From Octopus vulgaris (taxonomy: Eukaryota), in assembly GCA_951406725.2 (NCBI GenBank), contig OX597817.1:101618001-101682000 (forward strand): a stretch of DNA of 64,000 nucleotides, in the 5' to 3' direction. Shown here piece by piece: positions 29,717-61,986 of this stretch. Each line of letters begins with the position of its first letter. The stretch's first letter is position 1. Made by a program: the position numbers and the translations under genes. The notes beneath the pieces are model-generated. The model did not search any database and was not told where the DNA came from. It worked only from the letters and a program-made list of their open reading frames with translations.

Positions 29717-29717
29717 G

Positions 29718-31767: not shown

Positions 31768-32349
31768 TATGCATACATATATATGTATATGTATGGATGT
31801 ACGTACGTATGTATGTATATATATATATATATATACATACATATATACATACATGCATGCATACATACATAATACATACATACATACATACATACATACA
31901 TACATACATACATACATACATACATTCATACATACATATCTATGTGTGCGCTCGTTCTCTTTTTAATTTAGAATAAATCGTGACAGGCCACCTACTTGGT
32001 AGGAAAATTGTGAAGAGAAGTATCTCGTTTTAACTGTCATCCTTTAAATCTTAAGTAGGACTTGCAGATTTTTATAGTCCCAGATTTTTATAGTCGTGAT
32101 CATTTGTAGTGTATGAATTAAGGATTTGCATTCTCACCCTGTTGTGACGTGCGTGTACACGTCGGGTGTAAAATAGTATTACCCAAATAACTATTTGGAT
32201 GTGGTTATCTAAAATAACCTATCGCAGAATTATTATTATGTTTACACAGAACGCACTCCGCACTACTCGAACGTAGGTACGATATTAAACCAACACTCAT
32301 CGCACTAACACAGTAACCAATACGGTGGACCAGCACTGTCAATTGCCCC

Positions 32350-33130: not shown

Positions 33131-33786
33131 TATAGTCAAGCCGTTCATTTTAGGTTTTCACAGGAGGGTACAACTTTGCCACCTTTTAGTGATAAAAATA
33201 TACATTTGAACTCACCAAATTTCCTTTCAATGTCTGGAGAAAATCGGGTTATGAGGTCCAATTGTTGTTTTATGTAGTCGATATTTGGCCCATACAGTTG
33301 CAGATCGTCGACAAAGGATAGCGAGATACTTCTGCGTTAGTATGTTTTGCATGTATGTATGTATGTATGTATGTATGTATGTATGTATGTATGTATGTAT
33401 GTATGTATGTATGTATGCTTGCATGTATGCATGCATGTATGCATGTACGTATGTATCTATTTCTATGGTCACTATATTTTGTGTGGGGGTATGTGTGTGT
33501 GTGTGCATGTGTGTGTGTATATATGTATGTATGTACGTATGTATGTATTGGCAAGATCCTATGCCTTCTGTAAGGACGGAAAATATGTTTATCTTGCATA
33601 CAAATGTGTTTGTTTTATTTAAATATGCTGATTATGCTAATAAGATAACGTTAATCACATATGATAATTTCAATTGAGCACTCTTGAGAAAACAAGCTTC
33701 TTTGCTCAATATTTACTTTATTAGTACACAAATTCAAAAATGCAAACTAACGTAGACAATATTGTGACGACATAGTCTTTGTACTA

Positions 33787-33900
<114 letters not shown>

Positions 33901-34039
33901 ATTATTATTACTATTATTATTATTACTTATATACATTTTTTAATATTATGTTTCCATTGAATATTTTGTTCCAGATGAAATTCCCTTGGTTGTACCTAAT
34001 TGCTACACAGGGTTTTAAATCATTTTGATTCCTATTTCT

Positions 34040-34136
34040 ACGGAGTGCCATGTATAGTAGCCTGAAAGATCACAGTCGCCAGCATACAGAAATTTGCGTA
34101 TTTGTGATATGAACATCTCTCTCTCTCTTTCTCTCT

Positions 34137-34174
<38 letters not shown>

Positions 34175-35960: not shown

Positions 35961-36377
35961 GTACCCTGGGACACCTGCCGAACCAAACACTTTCACTACC
36001 CGTTCCAGAACCTCTGTTGCCTTTATTCTGTAAATTATTGTCATTTTATGTTGTTTCGCTTTTTTTACTACAGCCAGACTATGCAACACATAGTAGAAAT
36101 GTTAATAGAAATGTTAAGAAATCAAGCGGTGTGTGTGTTTGACATTTTTAAAGTGAGGAAATGTGTTATAGAGGGGCAATTCCATATTCTGAAGAACGTG
36201 TGCATTTATCCAAAAAGAAGAACTACGTCATTGGATGCAAACAACCTGATAAGTGTTACATTAGTTTTCGTTCTTTTATACAGATGTCTAAACAAGGACT
36301 AGGGTGTCTCTCGTTTCCAGTGGACTATCATTCAGGTTTATTCCTTGATCCTTGATTCCTTGATGCGTAAATATATA

Positions 36378-37896
36378 TAGTCATGGCCAATGATTTTGGC
36401 AAACACCGTTTTTTTCTGCTATTTCATGTGAAATATCGTGTGAATATTAATGATTTAATATTATTTTCGCAGGTTATCTTTTATCCAGCAAGATTTGAAA
36501 GAAAAGCTGTTGAAAAACCAATAGTTCTGCAAATAATCATCAGTTTGCGGAATTGGTTATATTTCGTACAAGTGGAAATCAAGTTGGAATCGCATGCAAA
36601 CGCGAGATAATAACCAAAACAGTTAAGTAAAGTATAATGTCATATTGTCATCAGCCTTTTATAATTGAATTTTAATTAATGAGTGATCTTTTTCCTCACA
36701 AAAACTTAAAATTTTATTTTCTTTTACTGCAAGAATGGTGTTGGCACAAGAAAAAAGGTCAGTCAATAATTTCTTTCCACCAAAATGGCCTAACAACACA
36801 GGATATTGTTGATAAAGGCATTGCACCAGAAAGAACTGTGTACAGGATTATAAAACTTTTCAAAGAGACAGGATCCATGACGGGGAATAAGGTCTCTGCT
36901 CGCCAACGTCTGTCCTCTGACCGCCAAGACAGGGCTTTGGTGAGAAATTCATTGAGGAATCGAAGTGCCGGCAGCAAACAGCTTCCTAAAGAATGAGAAT
37001 CAGCCGGTGTCAGGGCTTCAGCTCGGACTTTTAGACGACAATTTCTTAACAATGGTCTCGCTTCACGGAGTGTTGCAAAGAAACATTTTTTGTCCATTAG
37101 AAACGTAAAGGACAGGCTTGCCTTCAGCAGAAAATATAAAAATTGGTCTATTGAACAATGGGACAAAGTGATTTTTCTGATGAAGCACCATCTCGATTGT
37201 TTAGGATATCTGGAAAAAGGCTCGTCATAAGGCGACAAGCTGAACGCTATGCGGCCTATATCGTGTTCATGATCAAGCATCCAGAAACCATTCATGTGTC
37301 GGGTTGCTTTTCATCCAAGGGCGTTGAATCACTGTCAGTTTTGCCGAAAAATATTTCTGTGAATTCCATATGGTACCAAAATATTCTTGAAAACCATCTC
37401 CTTTCAACCATTGAGAAACTTGCATTTTCCAACAAGGTGGAGCACCTTGCCACGCTGCTAAGAAGATTAAAAACTATCTTGGAGATAAAGGTACCGAAAT
37501 TTTGGAGTCTTGGCCGGGAAATTCTCCAGATATAAATCCTACTGAAAATTTGTGGTCTATCCTTAAAATGCAAGTTGACAGAGAGAATCCAATAAATATT
37601 GCATAGTTGAAAGCTCGCGTACAGCAAGAATGCAGGTCTGTAAACATAGAACTGACTCAATCATTAGTTTCCAGCATGGGCGTCTCGAAACATAGGGGTC
37701 GCCACTGCAAATAGTGAGAGGAAGATGAATAACCGCGTATCACACCTTATTATTGTTCATATGGTTCAAGTGTGATATTATTCTTCGTTAATATCCTCGT
37801 ATGCGCTCAAACAAACCAGGTTTTGCCTTAGATAGGCATATTTATATATATTTTGGTTCAAAATAACTCTTTTGTCAAAATCATTGGCCACGACTG
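36378..37896 (+). mobile_element. Tc1-like transposon (DD34E-type), full length, frameshifted
   Basis: TIRs tagtcatggccaatgattttggcaaa / tttgtcaaaatcattggccacgactg, TA TSD; WDKVIFSDEA, GCFSSKG, WPGNSPDINPTENLWS. Confidence 0.9.
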
Positions 37897-38021
37897 TAGA
37901 CATTTCTTGTTGAATGGCCGCTAACTCTACTGATTTATCTGCCCTTTCTCCACCTTTTTACGTGTATATGTGTGTGTTCGTGTATGTGAGTCTGTCTGTC
38001 TGGTTGTGCATGTATATATAT

Positions 38022-38550
38022 ACTAGCCTTGAAGCAGCCCTTCGGTCTGCATCCACGTTGGCTCCTGCTGAGGGTACCTTTGAGGCCTTCGGCCACATAT
38101 CGAGCCGCTTCGTGGCCCTCTATCCTTGTTTAATGAAGCGTATTTCTGAAACTGTGCTAAGCACTGATGCTGATCATAGTTTAGTCAATAAGCGTAGGAG
38201 CGAGATAAATGCAGTAAAAATAGAGGGATCAGGATCAGTCGGGCCCCATTTAAACGCCCCTTCAGAAATTGAACCTCCTTACGATACTCCCTGGGAGTTC
38301 ATGGTATGAAATTCATTGTCATTGCTTCAATTTGGTCGCCAATGCCAATTTAGTTTAAAATGCAGTAAAGATAGTGGGGTCAGTGGGACTCCAATTTGGG
38401 CGGGCCCTAAAAAATAGACTCTGTTCGAACATTCCCTGGGATTAGGGCAGTTGCTGGTTTGAGTTTCGTTGTCCTTCCACCAACGGTCTTGGAGGAGTTA
38501 ACGAACATAAAAACGTAACGGACAGAGAAACATGACTCAAATTTATATAT
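38022..38550 (-). mobile_element. Non-autonomous Helitron-like element
   Basis: CTAG terminus next to a GC hairpin (gcagcccttcggtctgc) at the left end; AT-rich end at the right. Confidence 0.5.
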
Positions 38551-38889
38551 ATATATATATATATATCGTCAAATTTAGAATTAAATAATTAATGTTTAGA
38601 AAGTAGGCGATAAATGCAGTATCCAGACCTTGTTTCAGGGTAAGTCCCAGGTAGTGTGCCTGCATCGCATGTTCAGCACTTATGGCTACCAGGCGTCATC
38701 AGCAACACTGTGTGTTCGTCGTTGGATGTTATCCGCAAATCCGAGGTGCACGTATAGCCTATTTTAAAAGAATGATACGGAAGACGGAGTGTAACTAGAA
38801 TCATTTATTAGTACAGTGCAGAATGAAGCTGAAACGATTATTGTGCTAATACATGCTCTAGTTACACTCCGTTTACGGTATTAGTCTTT

Positions 38890-41370
38890 ATATATATATA
38901 TCAAAGTGAAGTTGTAAGGTACCGCAGAAGTGGAAATATATATGAAAGAAGGTTTGAAAATGCAATTTTAAAGATGTTTATTGACTTGACCGGTTTCCCT
39001 TTTTTAGAAAAAGATTGTCAAAAGTAAAATGTAAAGCTTTGTATAAGCTTTGTTGTGTTAAGTACTGGTTATCACAAAAGTTTTTTTAAAAAAAAACAGA
39101 AATACATTCTTTGATAATAATAAGAAAATGTTAAAAACAGTTTACAAGAAAGTATTTGAGAAAGTAATCAGAATGGGACTCCAAAACGTAGACTTCAATA
39201 AAAATTATGTTTGTTTGGTAGTATATATATACACAGAAGGAGATATAATTAAGATTTTACAAAAAATTGTAGAAGAATAACTGACCTTTCTGACATTTTC
39301 TCTAAGGAATGTTTGGGAATGTTTGCTATCTCAAGGGACAGTGTGGAAGGTTCGTTGGGGGAAGGCGGAGCAATGTGGAATTAAAGGGATTTTTTTGTTT
39401 CTGGGCTAGTCTGTCACGGTTCAGTGGTTTGGGGACTGGCCTTAGAAGTCAGAATGGTGTGAGTGTGTGTGTGTCTCTATGCAAGTCTTTACGTGTGTGT
39501 ATATATATATATACATTTGCTTGTGTTTTATATTTGGTAGGATGGTGTGAGTATATGTGTGCACGTTTGTGTGTGTGTATGTATGTATGTGATTAGTATT
39601 TGTTAGAGTGTTGAGTGTACGCATATGTGTGGATGTATTTGTTCGCGTGTGTGTATGTGTGCGTCTGTATGTGCGTGTGTATGTTTGTGCGTTTTGCCTT
39701 GTGTGGGGATTTTATGCGTGCGTACATGAGTGTGTGTGTGTCTCTGTCTGAGTATGTATGTGTTGTTATAATTGTCCTGGTGGTGTGTGTGTATATGTGT
39801 GAATAGTATTTGTCTGGGTGTTGTGCGTGCGTATATGTGTATGTGTTTGTTCGCGTGTGTGTATGAGTGCATCTGTGTGTGCGCGTGTGTATGTTTGTGT
39901 TTTGTGTCGGTGGGGATGTTATGTGTGTGTACATGAGTGTGTGTGTACGTGTGTGTCAGTGTACGTGAGTGTGTGTGTGTGTGTCTGTCTGTCTGAGTAT
40001 GATTGTGCTGTTGTAATTGTCCTGGTGGTGTGTGTATGAGCTACCGTATGTGTGTGTGGGTTCAAATGTATGTGTGTGGGGGTATGTATGGGTGTGTATG
40101 TGTGTGTGATGTTTTGTATTTATCAGGGGTTCTGTGTGTGTATCCGTATGTGTTGGGTTTATCCGGGTAGTGTGTATGTGTGCGTGTACGTTCTGTGCAT
40201 GTTGGTACTGGGTATGCCTTTGTGTGTGTGTGTGTAAATATGTGGGTATGGTTTATGTAGTTTTCCGGGTGTGTGTACATGTGTGTGTGCTGTATTTGTG
40301 AGTGATTTGTTTTGTTTGTATTGTTAATGCAGTGTGAGTGTGTCTATGTGTGTTGTATTTGCCGAGGAGGTGTGTGTCATTGTATATGTGCATGCTTTTG
40401 TGTGTGTGCACGTCTGTGTGTTTGTGAGTGTTTGTTGAGATTGTTGGGATTGTATTGTGTGTATATGTGTGTTTTTTTCTTTTTGAATGCGTGTGTGTGG
40501 TTTTTTACTGGAGAACGGGTGTATTGGGGGTTGTATTGTATTTGCGTGTTTGTGTATGTATCTGTGTATGTGTGGGTGTGTTTGTGTGAATGTGATTTGA
40601 GATTGTCAGGGTGGTGTGTGTAGGTGTGGGCATGTTCGTGTTTACGTATGTGTGTATGTGTGTGTGAGTGTTGGTTATGGTTGCTAGAATCGTATTGCAA
40701 GCGTATATATGTATGCGTTTTTTCTTGGAATGTGTGTGGGTTTGTGCTCTATTGTGAGGATATTGTGTTTGTACTATTTTATATACCCTAAGTGTGTTTC
40801 GGTTTTCGTAAGTCTTGGGTAGCAATTGCCTTCGCCCGTTCTATTCCATTGTCAACTAATGATGCTGGGTAATGTCTTTCGAGAAGAATTGCCTTTAGTT
40901 CTTGGAGTTTTTTTTATTTCGTGTTCACAAGCACGTGTATATATACACACACACATAGAGACGTGCACAGAAACACACTCACTTACACCATTCTGACCTC
41001 TAAGATCAGTCCCAAAAACCACTAAACCATGACAGACTAGCCCAGAAACAGTAAAAATCCCTTTAATTCCACATTACTCTGCCTTCCACCCCCACCTCCT
41101 CCAACCAACCTCCCACACTGTTCCTTAAGATAGCAAACATTCCCAAACATTCCTTAGCTACACACAAGAGAAAATGTCAGAAAGGTCAGTTATTCTTCAA
41201 AAATTTTTTGTAAATTCTGAAATATATCTCCTTATGCTTATATATATACAATCAAACATAATTTTTATTGAACTCTACGTTTTGGAGTCCCATTCTGATT
41301 ACTTTCTCAAATACTTTCTTATAAACAGTTTTTAATATTTTCTTATTATCATACATACACACATACCTTC

Positions 41371-41944: not shown

Positions 41945-42798
41945 CAGGGTGCGGTGAATATATTGTCGTCTGAATTACGCACAAATGAAAATAACACTGA
42001 CATTTTTTAACAGATATATTTACTAAAGTTACAATACTAAAGAGTAAATGTATTCAATAAAATCGCCATTAGCTTCAGCCGCAGCCTTCAGACGACCTCG
42101 GAATCTCTTGCAACTCTCCTGGACGGTCTCCTTGTTTAAGTTGGTGAATGCTGCCATAATCCTTGCCTTCAATTCATCTTTGGTGTTACAAGGAGATTTG
42201 TTGGTCTTTCGCTCAACTGCACCCTACACATAGTAATCAAGGGGGTTACAGTCTGGAGAGTTAAGTAACCAGGTGTTAGGGGTGATGTGGTCACAAAAAT
42301 TGTCAGACAGCCATGACTGGGTTATACTGCTTGTGTGACATGGTGCAGAGTCTTGTTGCCAGACATAGGGTCTTCCAGCAGCCACCCTCTTGACCCAGGG
42401 CAGCACTACCTCCTCCAGGCACTTGATGTAGGCCACCGTGTTGAGTGTGGGGCCGTGTGGGAAGATGACTGGAAGTATAACGTCGCCATCACTAGTGATC
42501 ATTCCATGATGTTGGATGTTTGATTTTTATCATTCTCGGTACATGTTTTAGGGACACGACAAGCCAACGGTCATTCTGTGTGCTCATCTGATTGTATTGG
42601 AACTCCTGGTGCGACTGCCAAGCAGTACAGCATTTCGTTTCCAAATTTCTCGCAAAGTGAATTGTGTCATGATACTTTTGCTCACAGACGGTGCCAAACT
42701 GACCCTACTATAATGTGTAGTCAACAAAATCGAAAACAAACAACGCACATACCTTAAACTAAAAATATAGAATGGCGACAATTTACCCATCGACCCTG
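41945..42798 (-). mobile_element. Tc1/mariner DD37D (maT) element, internally deleted
   Basis: TIRs cagggtgcggtgaatatattgtcg / cgacaatttacccatcgaccctg; QQD-(37 aa)-D ending SPDCNPLD. Confidence 0.85.
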
Positions 42799-44699: not shown

Positions 44700-46150
44700 T
44701 GCGATCTTACCTTGAGTTTTGCAGTCGGTCAGTAATTGTTAGGGAATAAAGTATTTTCTGCCTCTGAAATAAAAGGCCAATTTTGCTAGTTACGTTAAGG
44801 ATATGCACCTGTCATGGCAGAGCGTAAGTGATAGTGCAGCCTAGCATTTGGACTGATCTCTATTACTTTAGATACGTGTGACTGCTGTCTAGAATGTGAG
44901 GCGTGGTTATTTTTCTTGATGTGAACTATCCTTGAAAGACACAAAACTATCATATCTCTACAGGCGGAGGCTTTCGAGGCCTCTGTTCAGGTTTGCTAAG
45001 TGTTGTCCAGGTTTCATATGAATGACGCTTAAGTAGAGAGGACGGTAACACGTGCGTAAGTGTGGGTGTTTTTGGCTAGAACAGCAAGATCATTGATATA
45101 AAGAAGGAAGAGTGTGAGGACAGAACTGAACTCGGGTACATCAGAGATAGAGAGCACTTTATCAGAAAAGGCTCTGCAATAGGAAACTATTGACCCAAGA
45201 GATAAGAGAAGAGGGTAGCTCACAGACAGGTAGTTTTTATAATTTTATAATTTAAGTTCAGGTCAGTAACCTTAATAATCTGAAGTAACCGGAGGTACTT
45301 TTGCGCATGGTACATATGTATTCAAACTATTGAATGCGCTTAGCATGAATATATTCAAAGTAATAAATCTGGTTTGATGGAAGTGGGTATTTTCGAAAAT
45401 ATTCACCGAATAGTGTGGAGCTGGTTGCAAAGCGATGGCGAAGATAGATGCTTTACGTACAGGAGTACTACTCACAAAACCGTCATAGTAGAGAAGTGGA
45501 AAGGAAAGAGCAAACTGAAAGTTTAATTGTAATGCTTTTGACGAGGAATCAGAAGGATCACTTGCAATTTGGGAGATGGGGGAGCTGAAAGACTGCATGA
45601 TATACGGAGGTATCTTTTGCGATTCGGAAACTGATTTTGCAAGAGTTAAGATCTTGGGTAAGCACCATTCAGTTTTAAAGGGTGCGTGAATTTCTCCGGA
45701 CGTTTGTCTTCAGTATGAGTTTTGAATAAACCATTCAAGTGATAACTATGAATAAACCATTCAAGGGATACAGGGCATGTAGTTTTTCCTGTGTGTGATG
45801 TGAAGAGACATGTCTGAGACGGTTCTTTCTGTCAAATGCCTGTTTTAGTCAAAGGCTTAATAGCTCGAAAATGTAGCACGTGCTGTCAGAGATTGCATAA
45901 AACTGACTGAGTTCCGCATAACTTGAAATATTAGAGGATTCATAGGGGAGGCCTTGTCATATACGTGGTTGTGTAGTCGTGGTAAGACAGTGATGAGAAC
46001 ACTCCATAGGTGCAGAGACTGTTATGGACTTGTAGACATTGGGTTCGGAGATGAAAAAGAGATCAAATGTGATTGGAGTGTCTGTGTGTCAGTCAAGGAT
46101 ACTTATAGGGAATAAAGCAAGTTGCTGTAAAGAGTTAGGGATGTATCAGT
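44700..46150 (-). mobile_element. Old Jockey/L2-group LINE remnant
   Basis: DVPEFSSVLTLFLLYINDL (decayed GVPQGSVL.P.LFLLYINDL) at 45029-45223. Confidence 0.65.
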
Positions 46151-46228
46151 GTTGAGTAAGTGTGAAAAGAAGGAAGATTAATAATAAACTTTGAGACAAA
46201 ACTGTATTATGTAATAATAAATATAGAA

Positions 46229-46234
46229 TTTATT
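46229..46234 (-). terminator. Candidate polyadenylation signal AATAAA of the VWA gene (second candidate at 46485-46490)
   Basis: Plus-strand tttatt about 510 nt downstream of the stop, just before a LINE remnant begins. Confidence 0.5.
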
Positions 46235-46742
46235 TCAATATATATAATAATTTCTTACATAGATATAAGTACAGATATTTATAATGGATGACAAATGAGA
46301 TTATGCGTTGTTTGTATCAAAATCGACGTTCATACATGTTGCGAACTCAGATTTCAGATAACTTACCTATCTTTCATAATGAAGCAAAATTCGTATACAT
46401 TTTTACATTATGGCTCGAAAAGACTTGGAAAAGAACTGCTGCCAGCAACAGATTAGGTGTCTTCGTAAAGAACAACCTAAAATTATTTATTTCAGTTAAT
46501 TAGAATTAATACATTTCCTGAAAGAAGTTAGTTTCTCTGCAATACTCGTCAGACAATGTCATAAAAAGGAATATAAGAAGAATGAATGATGACAAAAATG
46601 TATATGAAGATGTAGATGCAGGTGCCGATGAAGAAATCATGTTTTAAATATAAATTGTATATTTACATAAGCAATAATTTACTAAAATAATGTAAATGGA
46701 AGAAGTTCTCTTGACTGATCCTGCAGTCGTTACGAAACAAGA

Positions 46743-47293
46743 CTATAACCTATAGCCTTTACACATTTTTCTGTATTGGAAAGGTCGATATTCAGCTCTC
46801 TGTACTAATCGGTTGTAATTTGGTGCACTGTAAGTATACCTATGATACGGTTGACTGCTCAAAGAGCGCACAAGTAGTTTGTTTTGCCATTCTTTACGTC
46901 CGACGCTTATTAGAAATACTTTTGCCCCTTTCTGTTTAAGTTTTTCAGTTTCACTCACTACACCAGGTGTTATAACTGATACCATTGGATCAATAAATAA
47001 AACAGCAGTTTTAGTTTTGTTGATATTACTTTCTTTGTATAGTTCGTTTCCAATCTGGTGCACAACATCTGCCAATCCAGGAACATTTAATTTGATACTA
47101 TGGCCTATATCTGCGTCCGATTTATTTAACAATGATGTGATAGGAACATTGAAGCTTGTAGGACAATGGGCATAGGTAACAACTGCAAAGTTGCCATAAC
47201 CAGTGTGCGGAAGAAGGGTATTGATGAACCTCGTGACCATATTGGCTCGATAGGCTCCCATTGATAAAAGATCATATCCAAAAGATATAGCGC
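46743..47293 (-). CDS. Exon 5 (terminal): degenerate VWA domain 2
   Basis: Acceptor tttatttcag. Translation [48 protein letters not shown] follows VWA strand/helix order; stop TAG at 46745-46743. Confidence 0.88.
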
Positions 47294-49084
47294 CTGAAAT
47301 AAATTTAAAAAATAATTTTAGGAAATTAAGATACAGAGCATGATTAGTTTAGCGTCTTCTTCGTATTTAATTCAACTAAACAAAACACGTACTTAAAACA
47401 GTATTTTTTTTTCAATAAAATATGGAGGAAGAAAGTTGATTTTGTGCTAAAACTCAGAGGTTAGTAAATCGCTTACATTCTGTAATAATATTTTTTCCTA
47501 CATTCTTCATATTAATTTTTGGAATTTTACTTGAATGAGTAAAATATTCCAAATTAAAATCAGTAATTTAAAATCTAATGAAATGTAAATATTTAGCTCA
47601 CAGAATATCTATCTATTTTATCAATGCTTTTACACATAAAATAACATTCTAAAAATAAAAGAAATATTTCATTTGATAAAAAAAATATTTATATTTTTCT
47701 TTATAGTGTTACTGAATTATCTCCCTTTATCTTTCAACCACATGCATTTTTATGACGCGCTTTTTAACAATGTTGTAACTATAGGAATCTCTCTTCGTAA
47801 TTACAAGAAAATTATCAAAGGTTCTGATCAATATAAGCATTAGGTCTTATGCGCGCGCGCGTGTGTATAGAAATGTTGCTCCCCAATCACATGGTTTCGA
47901 GTTTAGTCCCATTGCATGTGGAACACTGGGCAAAGGTATTCTATGAAACCTGAGCGGACCACCAAAGCTTTGCTAAATGGAAACTGAAAGAAACCTGTCG
48001 TATATATGTGAATGTATGTGGGATGTAAAGTGTGGGGTATGGGGAATGTCGGGTATGGTGTGTGTGTGTGTATGTGTGTGAAAAGGGATCATAATTCCTC
48101 CCCATGGGCTCATAAGACCGCTTTCCTGGATTCGTGTGCGTATATATTTCCCCACTGGACGGGACGTTATCCGTCGTCTGTCGCAAGATTGTTCATTTTT
48201 ACCAGCTAAGTTTAAAGTGTTCGAGAGTAACGAGTAGTAAAAGGTACAATAAAGTGCTCAAAAACACAATGCATCCCTTTCTCCTGCAATTGGAACCATA
48301 ATCCTACGAGCAAGAGGACAACACCCTAACCAATAAATAAAGTGCCTACACACACACACACACACACACACATTGCTATTGTATTTTCTGTATAATATTT
48401 TGCCTTAAATTTTACCTGCATCCCTTGACATCCTCATACTGAACTCATTCCCATTGCCCCAAAATCACATCAATAAATGTCTATTGCTTTAATCCTTCAC
48501 ACTGCATTATTTCATCCCTAAATCAAATGCCTAACTATTTTCTAATTCCTAGATAGTAAATACACCTATATATTAATAATGTGCCCTCTCAAGTACAAAT
48601 TATTTACTAATTGTATATTTTTAGATTTTTCTCTTATAACATGTTGAAAATCAATTTTCAAGCATTGTCGATTATGCATTATGCCAACATTTTACATACC
48701 ATCTGGATAGCTTCGCAACGTTTTTTTCATTTATTATGGAATATTTGCAGTTTAAGTTGCGTCCCCTTGTATGTTTAGTAACTATTCGTTATGTAAAGCA
48801 TACTTTCACTTTTAATCTTTTTTTTATTTTTACGTGTTTCAGACTGTGGCCATGCTAGGGCACCGCATCGAAGAATTTTAGTCGAAACTACATCGGTTCT
48901 TAATTGATTTTTAAGGCTTGGTACTTATTCTACCAAAAACTTAGGCCGAACCGCTAAGTTACGGGGACATATACACACACTGGTTGTCATGCGCTGGTGG
49001 GAGACAAACACAGACACAAAGGCACACACACACACACACTCACACACACACACACACACAAACATACATACATACATACATACA

Positions 49085-49117
<33 letters not shown>

Positions 49118-50060
49118 TTACGACGGGCTTTTTTCGGGTTGCCCAAGATGTTACATAGTGGTTCTGAAGCACGAAACCATGTAGATGGGAAGTAAACTTC
49201 TTTTATTCATTAAATTTGCCATGTAGGTAGCACATAGATAAGGTAGCCTTGCGGGCTGGACATAGACATTGATGAGGCGAATGATTATGATCCAAAAATG
49301 ATAAAGATGGGAGAAGACAGAAGGCGCCCGCCGACCCTCTGCTTTTCTTCTTACCACACAGCCAAGTAAACTTCTTACCACACACCCAAGTCTAAAAATT
49401 TGAAATTTAACTTCATCTACTCTGTTTTTAGACTCTGTATTGGTTAGCGGCTTCATTTCTAATTCGAATTCTAACCCGAACTACTTTAAAACTTTCGTTA
49501 CATTCCTGTGTTGCTACCTTTATTTTTAATATATTTTCTTCAATTTTTTTTGCTGGGTTTTTGCTATTTTTATTTGTTCTACCATCTTTCTTACTATCTT
49601 ATTCACTTCTTAACATGGCTTCTAATGAGCTTCTTCCGAGATTCGAAACAGTGTTGCAAGTTGTAATCTTCAACTACAAAAATATATGATGCCTTTCCTT
49701 AAACAGATAGATCCCGTTATTTAAATTGTGTGTGTGTATGTGTATTTAAATTGTGTGTGTGCAGTGTATTGTTATGATGTGAGATCCTCGTTCACTTGTA
49801 TGTTATTGTCGGCACTGCAATATTCTTGTCGCCATTATTATGCTGTGGCAGTATTCCGCGTCGTATCATCCTTGACTCGTCTATCGTTCTATCGCTGATA
49901 GCTCCGCATGACAATGACTTTGAAACGTCTATCCTTACCGGTAACTCGAACTCGTATATATCACGTAACTGACACTGACTCCAACATGTTATTTTTGACA
50001 ATCTTTTTCTAAAAAAGTGAAACCGGTAAAGTAAATAAACATCTTTTAAAATTGCATTTT

Positions 50061-50117
<57 letters not shown>

Positions 50118-53100
50118 CGCAGGAGTGGCTGTGTGGTAAGTAGCTTGTCTACCAACCACATGGTTCCAGGTTCAGTTCCACTGCGTGGCATCTTGAGCAA
50201 GTGTCTTCTGCTATAGCCCCGGGTCGACCAATGCCTTGTGAGTGGATTTGGTAGACGGAAACTGAAAGAAGCCTGTTGTATATATGTATATGTGTGTGTG
50301 TGTATGTGTTTGTGTGTCTGTGTTTGTCCCCCTAGCATTGCAATCTGAGTTCGCAACATGTATAAACGTCGATTTTGATACAAACAACGCATAATCTCAT
50401 TTGTCATCCATTATAAATATCTGTACTTATATCTATGTTAGAAATTATTATATATATATTGAAATAAATTCTATATTTATTATGCTGGTGTGTTTACGTC
50501 CCCGTCACTTAGCGGTTCGGCAAAAAGAGACCGATAGAATAAGTACTGGGCTTACAAAGAATAAGTCCCGGGGTCGATTTGCTCGACTAAAGGCGGTGCT
50601 CCAGCATGGCCGCAGTCAAATGACTGAAACAAGTAAAAGAGTAAAAGAGTATATAATTATAACAATAAGAGTTTTGGAACAAGTTGCTTAACCACATACC
50701 GAAAATTTTAGAAATAGCAGCCAAAGGACTACTATTTCCTTTTTCTACAAAAATATGTCTCCACAGACAACAATATTTGCAAATCACATATGGCAAAAAG
50801 AAAGAAGAAAAATAATGAAATCAGTCTTCGGTTAATTATAGACGTACGTTTCTGGATTAGAATCATAAGATTCATTTCCTTCATCGACATAATATTCAGA
50901 TAAATAAATCTAGATATGCTAGGTAAACTTACCCCTTATATTTCCGACCAAGCGTCATCGGAACATATAAAAGCTAATCAGCATATCCACATTTATATAG
51001 ACAAGTGAATTCGTATTTCCCTCCAAAATTTTTTTCTACCATGTATATGTATGTATATTCCTTAATTCTAATTTTGCTATTGCAATGCATGTTCATTGTC
51101 CACCCATGCATAAATTACATGGTTTCTAATTAAAGGCCTTCTACATTGCCACAAAGGAAAGGTGAAAGGTACTCAGTATACGATTACTAATTCATTAAAC
51201 TTAGAAGTGACAGAAGGGAGAGAAACTAAATTCTACAGGAAATTTAATCCAGTGTCTTAATGTATGTCACTCCATCTCACTCCACTGAGATAATAACAGT
51301 GATAGATTCTTCAATATTAAGCATGTTGTATGGTTAAGGAGCTCCCTTTGCAAACACATAGTTTCGGGTTCAATCTCACAATACGGCACCTTGAACGAGT
51401 GTGCTCTACAACAGCCTTGTAAATGAATTTGGTAGATGGAAACAGCGTGGAAAACGAACATACATATACACGTATAAGAATGTGTGTTGAGTGCGCTTAT
51501 GTGCTTGTGTTTGATTTCCACCACTGATTTACAACCGGTGTTGGTTTGTTTACGTCCCCGTTACTTAGCGCTTCGGCAAAACAGAACTGACAGAATAAGT
51601 ACCAGAATTAAAAATAAATACTAGAGTCAATTTATTCGACTAAACCCTGGAACAAGTAAAATTCAAAAGATAAAAGATGGTGTTCTTTCTAGAAGGAATA
51701 TCACTAGAGAGAAAAAGCAACATAAATTCATAACTTCAGTTTATGTTTTCTTTGTGAAGAGGTTTTCAAACTGTGTGTTGTGTGCTTTTAATGTGGGATC
51801 TTTTCCTTTTGATTGGCAGGTCAATAATTTTTTTTTTTTTTAGCTAAAAACTTTCAAACTTCGGATATTGGTAGAATGTGTCATATAGAACATCTTTTAC
51901 TCTTAGCGTTGTATTTCGGTAATTTCAACCAATCAATGACGTCTATTGAGCTGAATAAAGTTACTGCTGTTGTTTGTCAACAACAACTTCCGGCGGTGTA
52001 TATTTCGTTTGTCACTGTTATTCATGACACATTTCATCTCAGTTACGTTCGTATGATTAAACGAGTGTATCTGAAACACGTTTAGTTCATGGCACCACCA
52101 CAATCGTTCGTACATTTCTACTGCTTTTAGCTCTTCTTTCCTGTTTTTCAGCTACTATTTTCGGAAAGACCTCCTCCCGTCCGCCCGCACCACCACAACC
52201 ACCATTTTCTCGCAAATTATTGTTTTCTTAAATTTTTTTTTTTTTTTTTTTTTGCCAAAAACCCAGCTTTTCGGATACGGAGATTCCGGAAAATTGCCAA
52301 AAATCGGAATTTTGAAATTTTTTGCCCACCCCTTTACCCCTCCCAATTTCTCCATTTTTCACTTTTTTCCGTAACCCTAACCCTAACCCTAACCCGAAAA
52401 CCCTAACCCTAACCCGAAAACCCTAACCCTAGCCCTAAAAGCTTAACCCTAACCCTAAAACCCTAACCTTAACCCTAAAACCCTAACCCTAAAACACTAA
52501 CTCTAAAACCCTAAAGCTAAAACCAGTACAAACACACGAACGATATCATAACAGTGACAAACGAAATATACAGCGCCGATAGTTATTGTTGACAAACAAG
52601 AGTAATAATTTTATTCAGCTGAATACACATCATTGATTGGTTGAAATTACCGAAATACGACAACTTTAACACGAAATAACTTCGAAAATACAAACTTTTC
52701 TCAACAACGCTAAGAGTAAAAGATGTTCTATTTAACACATTCTACCAGTATCCGAAGTTTGAAGGTGCTTAGTTTAAAAACATTAATTTATCGACCTGCC
52801 GATCAAAAGGCAAAGATCCTTAATGTGTTACAGATTGTCTCTATGTGTGTTGCAAAACTAAGTCAAATCTGTCCGAATTTCATGAATATAGGACTGTGAA
52901 GTATATTTTCATAGCAGACGACTCTGTGAATATTTTGAGACACGTGACTTGTGAGAGGCGACGTAAAAAGCTATATTTTAAAAAAGTATATTGGTTTCAA
53001 ATGTTGGCCTTAAGGCAAGTAATTTTGGGCTAGGAAATAAGTCGATTACATCGACCCAAGTACCCAACTGTTACTTATTTTATCGACATAGAAAGGCTGA

Positions 53101-54162
53101 AAGGCAAAGTCGACCCAAGCGGCATTTGAACTCAGAACGTAAAGACGGACGAAACACCACTAAGCATTTTGTCGGGAGCAGTAATGCTTCTACCCCCTCC
53201 CTGCCTTACTTTAAAAAGTTGAGCTAATGTAGAATGTCTGGAAAGCTCTGTAGTTCTTTATGGAGGTAGTGCTTTAAAGTGAGCTACTTACTCTGGTCGT
53301 CTCTTTGCAGACGTGGAATTTTTGTTGTCGTTGGTTTTGGTGTAGTAGTCGTTGGTTTCGGAGTAGTAGTAGTCGTTGTTGGTTTTGGAGTAGTAGTAGT
53401 CGTTGTTGGTTTTGGAGTAGTAGTAGTTGTTGTTGGTTTTGGAGTCGTAGTTGTTGTCGGTTTCGGAGTCGTAGGCGTTGTTGTCGGTTTCGGAGTCGTA
53501 GTTGTTGTAGTTGGTGGCGGAGTTGTAATATCTGTAAACAATAGGTAAACGATAAAAAATATAGTTTGTAAGCCAAAGAAACATAAAAGAGCGTTGACCG
53601 CTATATTTTATTTTAAAAATTAATAACACTTAACCTATTAAAAATTAAACATTTTCATTGACAATGAAAAGTGATACAAGCACCAAGAATGATGAGTGAC
53701 AGTTTTCTCAGCAGCATTATTGACGTAAATTATGTAAATTTGATACAATGAAAAATCAAGAAAAAACAACTTGGTGAATAACAGAGTATTGAGAACTGTA
53801 TTACTCTTATTTATTTTTTCTCACGAAAACATTTCATTTCAGCAATAAAATGTTTTGATTAGAGAATATTTAGATATGTATTACTGAAAGTCAATGTCTG
53901 GATATTATTCATTCTTTTATTCCTTTTCGTTTTTCATTTGTTTCAGTCTTTGAACTGCGGCCATGTTGAAACACCCTCTTCAAATATATTTTAGTCGGTC
54001 GTATCAACCCCAGGACTTACTTTTTAAATCTGGTAGTAGTGATTCTATCGGTCTATTTTGCCGAAACTCTAAATTATAAGGAGGTAAACAAGCCAACAAA
54101 GACACACATTCATGCATATATACATACGTACATCATACATATAAATGTGTGTGTGTGTGTGC

Positions 54163-54228: not shown

Positions 54229-57200
54229 GTACGGCGGGTTTCCGTCTCTCAAATTCACTCACAAGCCATTGGTCGACCAGGGACTATAGTTGAAGATACT
54301 TACCCAAGGGATCCGGTACTGAGACTGAACTCGAAAGCATGTGGTTGCAAAGTGAGCTTCATAACTACACAGCCGTGCCTAGCATATATTTAATAAGTTT
54401 CGTGGGTGCGTAGGACACATCCATCTCATCAGATGTTAAGACAGTCTTCCGTACAATTTCTATCTATAAAATCCTACTAACTGATTTTGGTCGACTGTTC
54501 CAAGTTTACAGTAAACGACACTTATGAAAGGTACTGCATGTGGGACCCAACAGCCCTTTATTACTAGGTAAAGTGGCAAATGCTTTAGCCTCAGAGTTAT
54601 GCTGCTACAATGCTTTCAGGTATGTTGTTTGTGATTTCTAAACTTACTTTAGCATAAATATATTTGAATTGAGAGAGAAAAGACGAGAACAAATGCAAAA
54701 AAGGGAAATAGAGAAACAAATTGGAAGTTAGCGAGAAAGAATGTTAGTAACAGGAGAGAGAAGAAAAGAAGAATCGGGGATGGGGGAAAGAGACAATGAT
54801 AAGCAGGGATATAGGCAGAGTAGTTTGAAGTTTCAAGAATTATGTTTGTGTAACTCACCTTCACATGTTTTTACACCAAAATGTTTTGCAATATTCTCCA
54901 ATGCTGAGTAACTTGACACTAACTGGATATTTCTGACAGGATCACTGGCGATGGACTTCAGCTCCTTTAAGTCATAATAGTAACCGACACCAATAGCATA
55001 AATATGTACACCGAGTTTATGAAGCAAACTGGCTTCGTATCGAGTAGACCAGCTATCACGTGATTTCCCATCTGTGATGACTATTACCATAAATGGAGCT
55101 GTGAAGACTTTCATCTTTGGTTCAATTTCCGTTCTTAGGAGATGCAGAGCATCTGCCGTGTTAGTTTCTCCGGTTCTATAAGGGATTTTTAGAATAGCAT
55201 TCTGTAATTTCTTTTTGCTCGCATATCTTCCCAAAGGTATATCTAAATGAGCCGTACGACTAAAGGTTATAGCACCAACACGTACATGAGAGTTGGTTTG
55301 ACCGATATCGAAATTGTCGACCAAATCACGGGCAAATTGTAGCTGTTTTTTATAATCTTCTATCCAAATACTACTGGAAGAATCCATTACAAGCATAATA
55401 TTTACTGCTTTTCCTTTGCAACCTATTTTGAAAAGTGAATAAATAAAGAATTTATGAATATAACAATTATTCTTTTACTGATTCTAATCAATTCGATTAT
55501 AATAAAATAATATACTACGTTAAGTTATATTAAATATTCCTTTCTACTGAAGGCACAAGACCTTAAGTTACAGTAAATATTGAAGCGAGTAATAGTAGAG
55601 CAATAGAAAATAATTGTAAAGTTTCAATTCTCCAAGTTTTAATAATCGGCAAGTAACTGTAAGATGCTAAATATTATTCAACCGTCTGCATTGCCTTCTT
55701 TCTAATATTGACTAAATGCTTAATAAAGGGACCATGGGTAAGTTTCTTAGGGTTCTTAAAAGAAAAATCCTTCTATATTTCAATATTTATGTAACTGTAA
55801 ACTATTGAAGTATGTTAAATATTCGAGTTTTTTACCATAATTCGACAATATTGCATGTTTTATATAATGGCACAATGACAGTTTATTTTGGCACCCAACA
55901 AGCAGTTTTGATCTCACCTCGAAAGAATAGATCTCTGATATGTGAATTTATTGAGAGAATGAGCTTTTCAGGTGTATGTGCTTTCATCTACGTTGGGCAT
56001 AATGTGTAATGTACTGCATGTAAAATGAACTGCCGCTTAGAAACATAGCGTATGATAAGCTAACGCTCGCACCATATATACGTGGATATTCTAAGCTGTT
56101 CTGTAAACAAATTTCGAAGTGTCAACTTGTTCCTTGGATATTAATGAAAAGAAAATATAGCGATAATTTGTAACCGGAGGAAGTAACTACTGAAAGTTAG
56201 AATTCCCCAACCAGAGGAACTTAGAAGTTACGAGGTGTTACTGCTGCAGTGATAGAAGACGTTCGCTTCTTAATCAAACAAGTCGGGAAAATAAGGTTGT
56301 TGTTTGGTCCCTAACTCGGTCCTGATAGAACAAACTAATTATCAGAAATGTCTCGGTAGCAACCATTTGATCTAGGACCACTTTAACCAAAGTCTCCGTC
56401 GCTTTTTCTTTTTATAAAATTTGGGCATTATTCCTATCTGGTACTTTAACCGCGTAGAGATACTCAGTTGGCTGAGTGTAAAGAATCTGCGAATGTAGCA
56501 AATATTACAAAGCTAGTAAAACACATAGCGAACTCCAGAAGACTGGTATAGATGTATTCAGTACGCCTGAGAGCGGATTTTATTATGAAAACCAGATTGA
56601 TAAGGTATATGAAAAAATTGGAAAAATAGAACTCAAAATATGAGTTTATGTATACTTTTATGAATATTTAGGAGAATCAACTGCGTGACTCAAGGGCCGA
56701 AAGTTTCGTGCGTTGATAAGTGCCAACGTACAAAACTCTCGGCCTTTGAGTCACTTTGTTGCTTCTGTTATATATATATATATATATATATAGTAAAGAA
56801 AAAAGCGTTTTTGAGACATAATTTGATGGATGTTTCAAAGATAAAATTATAAAATAGTTCAAGTGCGAATGATCCTGAAGTGACACGATTCGAAATTTCT
56901 TTCAACATTGTTACATTTTACAACAGTTGACAAATGATTCTTACAATATTAACTTACACAATAGGCGGATTCATGTGAATCATAATTTAACCATACGATG
57001 CTACATTGCTATACTTGATATATGTAGATATGGCTAGCCATTATATCTTATGTGTACATATATGGTTCGCATACATTTGTGTATATTTGTGAGTATTTCC
57101 CACGTAGGCAGGGGAATTTCTAACCTATATCAATGAAATTAAATGCTAGATAAAGGAACCATTATATCTTATGTATGTGTATATTTGTAAGTAGGCAGGG

Positions 57201-60200
57201 GAATTTCTAACCTATTTCAGTGAAATTAAATGCTAGATAAAGGAAACATGTCCATCATGACTTAGTAATCATTGCAGTCTAGAATATTTAAATATATCCG
57301 AACTTCCGCTTATATTTTGTGGGAAACATTGCAAATTATAACCAGTTTTGTTTGTGACGTCATTGAAAACCTAAATGGTAAGTGCAAGGACTTCAAATAA
57401 CGCTATGCTGTAAACCTAGTGTGTGAAGTGGTTTTAAGTGAGACAGATGATGTATATAAAAGTATTTAAGAAATAATTTACAAATCTAAAGAGAGAATAA
57501 TATTATGGAAGTTTAACCTATATAAAGAGAAATTCATTATTTACTATTTGAAAGATGTAAAACTATACAACTACAACTTACGTTTCATTGGCATACTAAA
57601 GGCTGAGACCTGGAAGAAGAAAAAGAAAAACAGACGTCAATTTTAATACAGAAACTTAAAAAGCTTATCGGTCAATTATTCATTTATTTTGTTTATAAAT
57701 TTGTGTCTATATACTCTGAGATGAGATAATCCAAAGTTCATTCTAACTGACTTCTTACTGTGGAAAGGAAAGCGTAAAGGATAATAAAAATATATTCCAT
57801 AGATGATATTTTGCTTAAAATAGTCTAACATTTGTATCACGAGTAAGTTCTGAATTAAAAATTATTATAAAAGAAAGGCTGGATATTTTACTGGACCAAA
57901 CATTATGAGAGACACACGGATTAAGATTTTAGGTGGTTAGTATATTCTAATCAGTAGTTTATTTCTGAAAACGTGACATGATAAAGCTCAGCAGCGTTGA
58001 GACAGCATATCTAACAATTTTAACAGTATATTCGGCTATGTTAGGCGAATTATTGGTGTAGAACGGAATTTTTAACTACCAATGAAATAACACTGAATAA
58101 ATATAGACATTATGTAGAGACAGTATGAGCTAATCTCTGGGAGATTATTGATCCTTATTTAGAAAATAAGAAAATTTACAGTATGAGCTAATCTCCGAGA
58201 AATTTATTTTCAAAAATTGTAGCTATCTGAATATTTTAACTTCCTGCTATATGCGTCCAAAGTAAGAGGTTTTCTGCTGCAATCTCACTTTTCTGATAAA
58301 AATCGTATTATCTGATTCGTACGAAATGATCCCTTTTCTCCGCATAGATATTGTAGCTGACTAAAATAAATAATTTGATATCAATACATCGAATGATTTA
58401 CTAAGTGTAACACTCTTCCCTTGACACTAAATCTTAAGAAAATTTAAGAGGAAATACTTATGAACGCGTTTTACATTAAAAAAAAAAGATATGTCTGTAT
58501 TTGTCAATTCTTTTATATTCTTTCCAGTATAGGTTAACGTGGAATGGTTGTTTCTTCAAATATGTAAATATGTCTAACGAAATTTATAAAAATTTTTGAT
58601 GAACATTGAGAAAAACATTTGAGAAAAGGTAAACATTTAGCAGTATCAATGACAATTTCCTGATCCATCGTATTCTTGAGGTTAATAGCATAAGAATGTT
58701 AACTTCGAATAATATGAGAAATATAGTCGCTTATCCACTTTTCAATGGTTTCTCTCATGTTATTCAGGTCCATTCTATCACCTAATAAACTGTTTGATTC
58801 GGGTCTCTCTCCCACTCTCTCTGTTGGCCTTTCTCTACTCTCTTACGCACATTCTCTCTTTCACATTCTCTTTCCTTTCATTATGTTCTTTTCAATGCAT
58901 AAATTTTGCTCACTCGAAGAGAACCTTCTTAAAATATTATAATTTCTCATGATCTAATTTCATAGGTTTTAAAACAATGAACATACACAGCGTTGAAGAA
59001 AGGATTAAGATTAATTCTGCTAATAGGGCTTGATTGGAAATTGGTGAACTACCAATGTGTTTACATTAGTTAATAGGATTCTGATTTTATATTACAATAT
59101 ATGATCTGGAATATTTTCTTTCCTCCGATAAATTCACTGCTGAAAAGAAAATCCATAGACATTTATGCCTGAATCAGTGCAGACAACTGTATTTCATTTA
59201 CGTTTTTAGATTCGGCGAATTCTGCAAAATATAGAATATTGTCCGAGAAAATTAGACTAGTTTTGCGTAACAAAAACAATCCACTTATAAACTTCCCTAA
59301 GGGGAATTATGTGCTTGAGAAAAGGTTGAAATATTACAAATCAAAAAGATAAAATATTTTAAACCAAGATTACGCTTAAATGTCATGGAGTAATGTTCAT
59401 GTGGTTTCTAGTATGAAATCCATATGAAAAATTTATCTTTAAAATTTTATAGTAAATAGTAATCAATCAAGTGTTGAAGTGAAAATGTGGATGAATTATG
59501 TGTTCTCGATATAAGTTCAGAAGCAGACAACTTAGATATCTCAGGGTTAGATCAAACTTAGTATATTGTGCTTACTTATTTTAACGCCCTAAAAGTATTC
59601 AAACGTGATTGTAAATCGGAATTTAGAGCGACATAAAATACTGTAAAACATTGTCTAGTGCAGATGTTCTCGATCAGGTTCCATATGAACGTTGGTGGTC
59701 CAGATAAGATTTGGGCCCATGCTAGCAAAATAGTAAATTAGGGCCCCACAGAAGTATTTTAAGGGTCCATGAAATGTTCTCATCTAAATATATGTATGGC
59801 AAGAAACAGCTACGTATCTTTCGCTAACATTTTACATAATTCAATCTATATAAGTAAATGAGTGGATAACAAAACAGGAATTTTGAAAGATGTGTCTTTA
59901 AAATTAGTTATTAAACATCGAATGGATATGGGGCAGGGATAAGCCACCAAAGGGGTCCATAGATTAAAAAAATGATTGAGAACTACTAGTCAAGTGCTTC
60001 CGTATTTCACCCCTCGATGAGTGGATCTAGCCTGTCAAAGATCATATAATCTCCTATGTGTTGTATAACACAGATAGCCGTCATTTAAATGTTGTCAAAC
60101 ATTAAAGATCACACATTTTTTTTTATTTATATCATGTATCAGAAATTGACATATTCCGTTAATTCTTTCATGTCCTCAAAAAATTCTCATAATATATATA

Positions 60201-61588: not shown

Positions 61589-61986
61589 ACAGACAGACAT
61601 ACATACATGCATATATATATAAATATATATACATATATATATATATGCATATATATATAGATACATACACACATATACATATATATTTACATGTTTAAAC
61701 GTGTATATGCATACATACATACATATATATATATGAGTGTGTATTTGTATGTATGTATGTATGCATGCATGTATGTATGTATGTATGTATGTATGTATGT
61801 ATGTATGTATGTATGTATGTATGTATGTATGTATGTATGTATGAATGTATGTATATAAATGTAATGAACATCGCTGATGAAAGTAAGAAATAATTGAATG
61901 GAAGTAATATAGTTAGAAATATAATAAAATCGAAATTCATTACATACCAACATCAGGCAGAAAACTACAATGGTTTGGCAAAGCAT
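46743..61986 (-). CDS. Spliced gene, join(complement 61948-61986, 57582-57609, 54859-55422, 53292-53531, 46743-47293): 473-aa secreted protein with two VWA domains and a Thr/Pro linker (matrilin/collagen VI-like VWA family)
   Basis: Exon lengths 39+28+564+240+551=1422 nt, one open frame. Donors are GTATGT, GTAAGT, GTGAGT, GTAAGT; acceptors are pyrimidine tract + AG; intron phases 0,1,1,1 are compatible. Confidence 0.9.
50116..50650 (+). mobile_element. tRNA-derived SINE in intron 4, interrupted by a 142-bp foreign insert
   Basis: Head gcgcaggagtggctgtgtggtaag..ggttcagttcc, internal TG repeat, 3' gtcaaatgactgaaacaagtaaaaga shared with other copies in the window. Confidence 0.85.
50836..50892 (-). 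ncRNA. Mutated hammerhead ribozyme in intron 4
   Basis: ttatg-tcGATGA-agga..tcca-GAAAC-gtac-GTC-tataa; the CUGA box is altered. Confidence 0.5.
51796..52819. mobile_element. Non-autonomous TIR transposon (Merlin-like) carrying telomeric repeats
   Basis: TIRs of about 225-270 bp starting GGATCTTT and ending AAAGATCC; exact 8-bp TSD ttaatgtg at 51788-51795 and 52820-52827. Confidence 0.85.
52372..52524. repeat. Interstitial telomeric-type repeat (CCCTAA)n with CCCTAAAA/CCCGAAAA variants
   Basis: Direct reading of the sequence. Confidence 0.9.
53292..53531 (-). CDS. Exon 4: Thr/Pro-rich mucin-like linker (PKPTTTTT repeats) ending IPRLQRDDQ
   Basis: 240-nt phase 1-1 exon with cag acceptor and gtaagt donor; ORF track 53284-53541. 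Confidence 0.88.
54859..55422 (-). CDS. Exon 3: VWA domain 1 with intact MIDAS
   Basis: [20 protein letters not shown] (DxSxS), [43 protein letters not shown], flanking Cys pair; tag acceptor and gtgagt donor. Confidence 0.95.
56685..56754. repeat. 31-bp-stem hairpin in intron 2
   Basis: gtgactcaagggccgaaagtttcgtgcgttg - ataagtgc - caacgtacaaaactctcggcctttgagtcac. Confidence 0.85.
57038..57248. repeat. Short local tandem duplication (period about 87 bp)
   Basis: gtaggcaggggaatttctaacctat..gaaattaaatgctagataaaggaa occurs twice. Confidence 0.8.
57582..57609 (-). CDS. Exon 2 (28-nt micro-exon): VSAFSMPMK, completes the signal peptide
   Basis: Strong acceptor ttttctttttcttcttccag and donor gtaagt. 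The joined N-terminus [20 protein letters not shown] has an A-x-S cleavage pattern. Confidence 0.85.
59661..59988. mobile_element. hAT (Charlie-like) MITE in intron 1
   Basis: Ends cagatgttctcgatc / gattgagaactacta; TSD gtctagtg/gtcaagtg. Confidence 0.6.
61948..61986 (-). CDS. Exon 1 (coding part): [13 protein letters not shown], signal peptide core
   Basis: ATG at 61986, hydrophobic stretch, donor GTATGT at 61947-61942 (phase 0), which joins in frame with exon 2. Confidence 0.8.

What the first reader, a model, noticed from the sequence alone, without database searches (positions are those of the whole stretch)
50342..50483. Inverted copy of the gene's own putative 3' end inserted in its last intron
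Seen: 50342-50483 is the reverse complement of 46214-46353 (2 substitutions, one 2-bp TA indel). It interrupts a SINE, apparently replacing about 10-12 bp, with no TSD or poly(A). The copy stops 15 nt after the AATAAA, about where mRNA cleavage would occur. Inference A: templated break repair, possibly from the gene's own RNA or cDNA. Inference B: in the pre-mRNA the intronic copy is antisense to the 3'UTR, so it can form a ~140-bp duplex that covers the poly(A) signal and loops out the last exon. That would be an ADAR editing-complementary sequence or a switch for poly(A) choice or splicing, relevant given extensive A-to-I editing in coleoids.
Basis: partly seen in the sequence, partly recalled or inferred. 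Interest (0 to 1): 0.75.

Follow-up and report, generated by a model that had tools for sequence, protein, structure and literature searches.

The report
Break-repair patch copied from gene's tail
A 140-letter piece from the very end of an octopus gene sits copied backwards inside a jumping-gene copy in that gene's last intron, most likely as an ordinary DNA-break repair patch; it would pair with the gene's own RNA, but no effect on editing or on where the RNA ends was seen.

Summary
In detail: 50342-50483 is an inverted copy of 46214-46353, found only twice in the genome, inside a young SINE in the 6-kb last intron of a vWA-domain gene. cDNA contigs confirm the intron and put the mRNA ends at 46203-46209, 5-11 nt past the copy's end, which has no poly(A). 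The anatomy matches every testable criterion of repair-mediated duplications (Pace et al. 2009): interrupted transposon, single donor 3,988 bp away, 140 bp, 2-nt microhomology plus 10-bp deletion, no target duplication. At least 3 other two-copy local pairs lie in 1.66 Mb sampled. DNA-templated repair is likeliest (0.6). RNA templating stays open (0.27) because the copy ends so near the poly(A) site; chance gives roughly 0.4-1.7 such cases per genome. A 140-bp pre-mRNA duplex is predicted, but four cDNA contigs reach the distal site with no majority A-to-G change, and the host SINE is young, so a conserved switch is unlikely. Whether other animals carry the insert was not resolved; one DNA run's 3'UTR contig equals the copy letter for letter. 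The scan noted a similar patch elsewhere in this genome (e1-9582499).

The parts
50342..50483 (+). Inserted copy (acceptor): 142 bp, or 140 bp if the last AT is given to the SINE; reads as mRNA sense on +, so antisense to the 3'UTR in the pre-mRNA
46214..46353 (-). Donor: distal part of the 3'UTR, 3,988 bp from the copy, holds the distal AATAAA
50117..50341 (+). 5' part of a young, very abundant SINE-type repeat, left of the insert (family name not tested)
   Evidence: nearest sampled copies 94-96%
50484..50651 (+). 3' part of the same SINE; 10 bp missing at the junction, 2-nt microhomology at 50482-50483
   Evidence: 3/166 from consensus of 43 copies
46229..46234 (-). Distal AATAAA, the signal used by the observed mRNA ends
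46203..46209 (-). mRNA 3' ends: poly(A) after 46207-46209 (2 of 4 runs), contig ends at 46203 (2 of 4 runs)
   Evidence: tables 7, 8
46486..46491 (-). Proximal AATAAA; use not measurable with contigs
46203..47293 (-). Last exon (coding 47293-46743, then 3'UTR)
47294..53291 (-). Last intron, 5,998 bp, holds the SINE and the copy
   Evidence: (splice 47293 to 53292 in 3 of 4 runs)
53292..53531 (-). Thr/Pro-rich linker exon
54859..55422 (-). vWA-domain exon (PF00092, E 3e-29)
57582..57609 (-). 28-bp coding exon
61948..61986 (-). First coding exon (13 codons, read by eye; matches the N-terminus of P0001), giving 473 aa in all

Best explanation
The segment is a 140-bp inverted copy of this gene's distal 3'UTR lodged in a young SINE 4 kb away, and it was most likely written there as a patch during repair of a germ-line DNA break, with nearby chromosomal DNA as the likely template and probably no function. 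Shown: two copies only, SINE interrupted, 10 bp lost, 2-nt microhomology at the right junction, blunt or imperfect left junction, no target duplication, no poly(A), donor intact. Inferred: a break in the SINE was trimmed, one 3' end annealed by the shared AT to the donor (same chromatid, sister or homologue), about 140 nt were copied, and the new strand was released and joined to the other end (SDSA or microhomology-mediated end joining). Predicted side effect: unspliced RNA from the carrier allele can form a 140-bp duplex over the distal AATAAA that ADAR could edit; nothing here shows that it does or that selection keeps it.
For: [quoted passage not shown] Local two-copy pairs recur in this genome: 25 of 314 within-block pairs had no third copy in 1.664 Mb, 12 were short discrete pairs including this one (13 dropped as tandem, over 1 kb, hairpin, under 90% or 44 kb apart), and of 7 of the other 11 checked genome-wide 3 were strictly two-copy, 1 a near-identical local pair in an old family, 3 mobile families. 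That is at least 1.8 and about 3-4 per Mb. Host SINE young (3/166 from consensus). The copy's letters are not assembly typos: run X3's 3'UTR-locus contig matches the copy 142/142 and X12's differs by 1.
Against: The copy ends 5-11 nt before the real mRNA ends, about a 1 in 1,000 placement for a donor taken at random within 5 kb; genome-wide chance gives only about 0.4-1.7 such cases (formula rescaled by hand to 5,000-10,600 events; 20,000-40,000 poly(A) sites assumed). No contig spanning either insert junction was listed in 4 of 4 DNA runs, including the possible source X1, though that call could hardly show one. Only this pair was polarised as an insertion by an empty site; the other pairs are not shown to be repair products. 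A 2-nt microhomology is weak and can be chance. No orthologous empty site was seen.
Confidence: 0.6

Rival explanations
1. Same break-repair patch, but copied from the gene's own transcript: the broken end primed by 2 nt near the mRNA 3' end and was reverse-transcribed 140 nt upstream (endonuclease-independent LINE-type or polymerase-mediated RNA-templated repair), in cis.
For: Copy ends 5-11 nt from mapped mRNA ends and lies wholly inside the transcript; the microhomology is at the end where reverse transcription would start (inference); break lies in the same transcription unit; class 2 templated insertions lack tail and duplication and were suppressed by RT inhibitors (PMC5110952 parts 1-2); mRNA-templated repair reported in human cells (PMC12065846, abstract only).
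Against: No poly(A), no splice junction, no A-to-G change toward the copy (the one A/G difference runs the other way and is an allele: A in X2, X3, X11, X13); proximity of donor is the normal DNA-templated pattern (PMC2671141); an end-proximal AATAAA occurs in 4.6% of 20,000 random 142-mers; germ-line expression of the gene unknown.
Confidence: 0.27
2. Whatever its origin, the copy acts as an editing-complementary sequence or poly(A)/splicing switch: it pairs with the 3'UTR, hides the distal AATAAA and is edited by ADAR with a measurable effect.
For: Best-matched inverted pair in the gene, predicted duplex about -205 kcal/mol covering the AATAAA, 52 A in the UTR arm; one contig of depth 3 (X11) carries a poly(A) tail and 259 nt of the last intron, a weak hint that tailed unspliced RNA exists.
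Against: 4 of 4 cDNA contigs reach the distal site and none shows a T-to-C (mRNA A-to-G) majority change (blind to minority editing and carrier status unknown); host SINE young, so no deep conservation is possible; arms 4 kb apart; five other inverted pairs of -74 to -277 kcal/mol exist in the same gene, so pairing potential alone is commonplace; target is non-coding.
Confidence: 0.07
3. The insert is an assembly chimera drawn from the second haplotype of the 3'UTR and does not exist in the animal.
For: Copy equals another run's 3'UTR-locus contig exactly (X3) while differing from the 3'UTR beside it; no junction contig listed in 4 of 4 DNA runs; depth over 50342-50389 equals the 3'UTR contig alone in each run.
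Against: skipped the repeat just left of the junction, overflowed with 107,000-204,000 SINE contigs per run and read only about 80% of X1; contigs show presence, not absence. Junctions carry a deletion plus microhomology as in validated cases (PMC2671141). Copy and donor share a 33-bp end, so a carrier's contig graph could itself splice the copy's letters into the 3'UTR contig, which would make X3 and X12 carriers.
Confidence: 0.08

Closest known systems
Repair-mediated duplications (RDs), Pace, Sen, Batzer and Feschotte 2009, PMC2671141 (parts 1-5 of 8 read, plus passages; supplements not read)
   Same: [quoted passage not shown]
   Different: Invertebrate (octopus) rather than vertebrate; donor ends 5-11 nt from a mapped poly(A) site; no orthologous empty site available, only the SINE family's empty site (a fallback that the paper itself uses).
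Class 2 templated sequence insertions (Onozawa and Aplan 2016, PMC5110952, parts 1-2 of 4 read)
   Same: Donor intact, no target duplication or poly(A), micro-deletion and microhomology, size within 73-414 bp; RNA templates proposed.
   Different: Defined as templated from a distant region; this donor is 4 kb away. Class 2 is described as lacking a poly(A) signal, whereas this copy holds one.
Class 1 TSIs / LINE-mediated retrocopies (same paper)
   Same: AATAAA near the 3' end of the insert.
   Different: No poly(A) tract, no target duplication, target deleted: not a member.
MMBIR/TMEJ templated insertions (PMC8421209, passages only)
   Same: Inverted copy of nearby DNA with microhomology, found as germ-line variants.
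   Different: That search defines templates within 100 bp; here 3,988 bp.
Intronic editing-complementary sequences for ADAR (recalled; search listing only)
   Same: Intronic sequence able to pair with an exon of the same pre-mRNA.
   Different: No editing seen, target is 3'UTR, element is young and near-perfect rather than conserved.

Membership tests
Repair-mediated duplication (Pace 2009) | Insert of 50 bp or more interrupting a transposon, halves collinear within 30 bp | tested here: met
   140 bp insert, halves 10 bp apart
Repair-mediated duplication (Pace 2009) | Found at only one other place in the genome | tested here: met
   2 matches of 2 candidates
Repair-mediated duplication (Pace 2009) | Donor more than 50 bp and less than 5 kb away | tested here: met
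   3,988 bp
Repair-mediated duplication (Pace 2009) | Microhomology, deletion or filler at breakpoints; no poly(A) tail | tested here: met
   2-nt microhomology, 10-bp deletion, no tail
Repair-mediated duplication (Pace 2009) | Empty orthologous site or presence/absence in individuals | tested here: inconclusive
   could not show junctions in 4 of 4 DNA runs
Class 1 TSI / retrocopy | Target-site duplication of 5 bp or more | tested here: not met
Class 1 TSI / retrocopy | Non-templated poly(A) 10-30 nt after AATAAA | tested here: not met
   SINE resumes 15 nt after AATAAA
Class 2 TSI | No duplication or tail, NHEJ-like junctions | tested here: met
Class 2 TSI | Template from a distant genomic region | tested here: not met
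   donor 4 kb away
RNA-templated repair | RNA-only marks in the copy (splice junction, tail, edits) | tested here: inconclusive
   none present, but the segment spans no intron and ends before the tail
ADAR editing-complementary sequence | Can pair with the exon in the same pre-mRNA | tested here: met
   same strand, last intron confirmed; predicted duplex
ADAR editing-complementary sequence | A-to-G changes in the paired region | tested here: inconclusive
   no T-to-C row in 4 of 4 cDNA contigs; contigs hide minority variants
ADAR editing-complementary sequence | Loss of editing on deletion; conservation across species | not testable with these tools
   no relatives' genomes or raw reads offered; young host SINE argues against conservation

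The most novel reading that the evidence does not exclude
A break in the gene's last intron was patched in the germ line by reverse-copying the 3' end of the gene's own mRNA, and the patch now base-pairs with that 3'UTR in carriers, creating from scratch an allele-specific ADAR substrate that hides the poly(A) signal: birth of an RNA-editing and 3'-end switch in one repair event.
Probability: 0.05. Interest if true: 0.7.

Novelty: new member of a known kind. Interest (0 to 1): 0.27.

Why it matters
As it stands, it is one clean octopus example of a class catalogued in vertebrates (9 papers hold the phrase 'repair-mediated duplication'; none of the titles concerns a cephalopod, listing only), and the sampling suggests thousands more in this genome. 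Inverted local patches inside genes are a ready source of new double-stranded RNA in an animal group known for heavy A-to-I editing (recalled), and this one is unusually testable: mapped 3' ends, a young host SINE, three marker differences, and possibly carriers and non-carriers. If its template was the gene's own mRNA it would be a natural heritable scar of RNA-templated repair in cis. Neither step is shown.

Tried and rejected
No RNA holder listed as 'on record'; the four runs used are guesses, but each shows a splice joint or a non-genomic tail. Presence/absence test: no junction contig listed; uninformative for the reasons given. Extra depth with the copy's letter at 50439 in X2, X3, X12 (table 3) could not be assigned to records and was not used. 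Reading the 2 substitutions and indel as age of the copy: rejected as unsafe, since one is an allele and the others occur in other runs. Editing footprint in the copy: rejected, no donor-A to copy-G change. Genome search with the SINE half found nothing, not even itself, because common words are skipped; SINE copies were taken from 1.664 Mb of fetched DNA instead. First base-rate estimate (6.6 per Mb) rejected after 3 of 7 spot checks proved to be mobile families. 3'UTR has no special fold of its own (z +0.76). Rfam: 8 matches, all far below gathering score, on microsatellites. Pfam: no hit for the last exon or two decayed ORFs. Paper search for inverted repeat + poly(A) signal + last intron + alternative polyadenylation gave 1 paper, not on such a switch by its listing. 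Notes search by words gave nothing.

Full report
Observation. Self-BLAST of the window gives an inverted match of 46214-46356 to 50483-50339 at 140/145. The core is 142 bp against 140 bp with substitutions at 50364 and 50439 and a TA indel near 50449. A search of the 2.8-Gb own genome returns these two places only; the same search returned over 1,200 candidates for three repeat families, so the segment is not a hidden family, with the caveat that very common words are skipped.

The gene. It lies on the minus strand: a 13-codon first exon read by eye, a 28-bp exon, a vWA exon (PF00092, E 3e-29), a Thr/Pro linker exon and a last exon, 473 aa in all. The last-exon protein is 100% identical to records named Octopus vulgaris and O. 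sinensis, 88% to O. bimaculoides, and has a paralogue and a cuttlefish relative at 43-48% (8 hits of 380 candidates); sources call it collagen alpha-1(XXVIII)-like or uncharacterised. Four runs guessed to be RNA, from four studies (4 of the 14 such rows), were laid on 45600-47600. Three splice 47293 to 53292, so 47294-53291 is the last intron. Two carry non-genomic tails at 46207 and two end at 46203. The mRNA therefore uses the distal AATAAA (46229-46234) and includes the whole donor; the copy stops 5-7 nt before the nearer end and 11 nt before the farther one.

The target. The copy interrupts a very abundant SINE-type repeat (107,000-204,000 contigs laid per run; about 100 3' halves in 1.664 Mb). 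Forty-three sampled copies and the loose ends in 4 of 4 DNA runs give the empty site: 10 bp are lost and the last two letters of the insert are shared with the SINE. The left junction is blunt, or a 3-nt match with one mismatch. There is no target duplication or tail. The host SINE differs from the majority of the 43 copies at 3 of 166 letters and its nearest sampled copies are 97.6% alike; the insert is younger than that. The family name was not tested.

Other animals. Four runs taken to be DNA (X1, X2, X3, X12; 4 of the 6 large holders) were laid on 50120-51000. In each, the insert is covered by one contig that continues into 3'UTR flanks. X1's differs from the copy as the window's donor does, X2's by one substitution and the gap, X12's by one letter, and X3's not at all (142/142). 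The A at 50364 also appears in two cDNA runs (46331), so it is an allele. The other two letters are either a 3'UTR allele in X3 and X12, making the copy identical to a living allele, or the copy's own letters drawn into the contig of a carrier, which a shared 33-bp end allows (inference). No junction contig was listed in any run, but the tool skipped the repeat left of the junction, overflowed on the right and read about 80% of X1, so this is no evidence of absence. An assembly chimera is left at about 0.08.

How common. In 1.664 Mb (window, 400 kb of neighbours, six 200-kb blocks) 25 of 314 within-block pairs had no third copy. Twelve were short discrete pairs including this one; 13 were dropped as tandem, over 1 kb, hairpin, under 90% alike or 44 kb apart. 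Seven of the other 11 were checked genome-wide: 3 strictly two-copy, 1 a 98% local pair in a family otherwise at most 81% alike, 3 mobile families. That gives at least 1.8 and about 3-4 pairs per Mb, or 5,000-10,600 per genome. Only the present case is polarised by an empty site (1 of 29 paired SINE halves). With 20,000-40,000 poly(A) sites assumed, about 0.4-1.7 donors per genome would end within 11 nt of one by chance (formula, rescaled by hand). The coincidence is thus possible but not comfortable.

Mechanism. Shown: anatomy, two copies, junctions, mRNA ends. Inferred: a germ-line break in the SINE, trimming of 10 bp, priming at the shared AT, copying of about 140 nt, release and joining. 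Pace et al. (PMC2671141; parts 1-5 of 8 read; supplements not read, and their table of cases may hold donors at poly(A) sites) describe exactly this in vertebrates: 824 of 1,136 with donor under 5 kb, median 147 bp, microhomology plus deletion in 9 of 39 inspected, no poly(A) in any of the 39, 11 donors in 3'UTRs, 295 acceptors in introns, one exon inverted into an intron of its own gene, and possible use of the homologue as template, which would explain a copy that matches the other allele. I give DNA templating 0.6. RNA templating (PMC5110952 parts 1-2; PMC12065846 abstract) gets 0.27: the end near the poly(A) site and the microhomology on the priming side fit it, but no RNA-only mark is present.

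Function. In unspliced RNA from a carrier the copy is antisense to the 3'UTR and a duplex of about -205 kcal/mol is predicted, covering the AATAAA but not the cleavage sites. One low-depth contig holds a tail and 259 nt of the intron, a weak hint of co-occurrence. Against function: all four cDNA contigs reach the distal site, none shows a majority A-to-G change, five other inverted pairs exist in the gene, and the host is too young for conservation. Contigs cannot show minority editing or the share of proximal ends, and carrier status is unknown, so incidental editing is plausible and untested; a selected switch is put at 0.07.

Verdict. A real-looking, young repair-mediated duplication: new member of a known kind. 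Searches for prior print were made; none listed this locus. Earlier notes of this scan record a comparable patch elsewhere in the genome, not checked here. Interest 0.27.

Noticed in passing
window 46207-47552 (run X11): One depth-3 contig carries a 19-letter tail and runs 259 nt into the last intron: possible polyadenylated, unspliced RNA, or a contig mosaic.
   Followed up: partly
window 46203 and 46207-46209: Two mRNA end positions 4-6 nt apart, 2 of 4 runs each.
   Followed up: partly
window 51796-52021 / 52548-52819: Older inverted pair (73%) inside the same last intron, predicted duplex -277 kcal/mol.
   Followed up: no
window 4007-5508 / 5491-6975: 1.5-kb tandem duplication, 98.5% alike, bounded by TA runs; recent duplication or assembly echo.
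   Followed up: no
window 53292-53531: Thr/Pro linker varies in length: 42 aa shorter in P0001 and 24 aa shorter in P0003.
   Followed up: no
L007:388-495 / 980-1087; L023:8369-8534; L067:7516-7732: Three further strictly two-copy local duplications (one inverted), candidate repair-mediated duplications.
   Followed up: partly
L053:7175-7298 and L088:6528-6721: Two young mobile families with 100%-identical copies genome-wide, often as close inverted pairs; the first recurs at about 487-bp spacing, like ribozyme repeats in earlier notes.
   Followed up: partly
window 42029-42704 and 45272-46170: Decayed transposase-like and retroelement-like reading frames by eye (recalled motifs); no Pfam hit for the two pieces tested.
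   Followed up: partly
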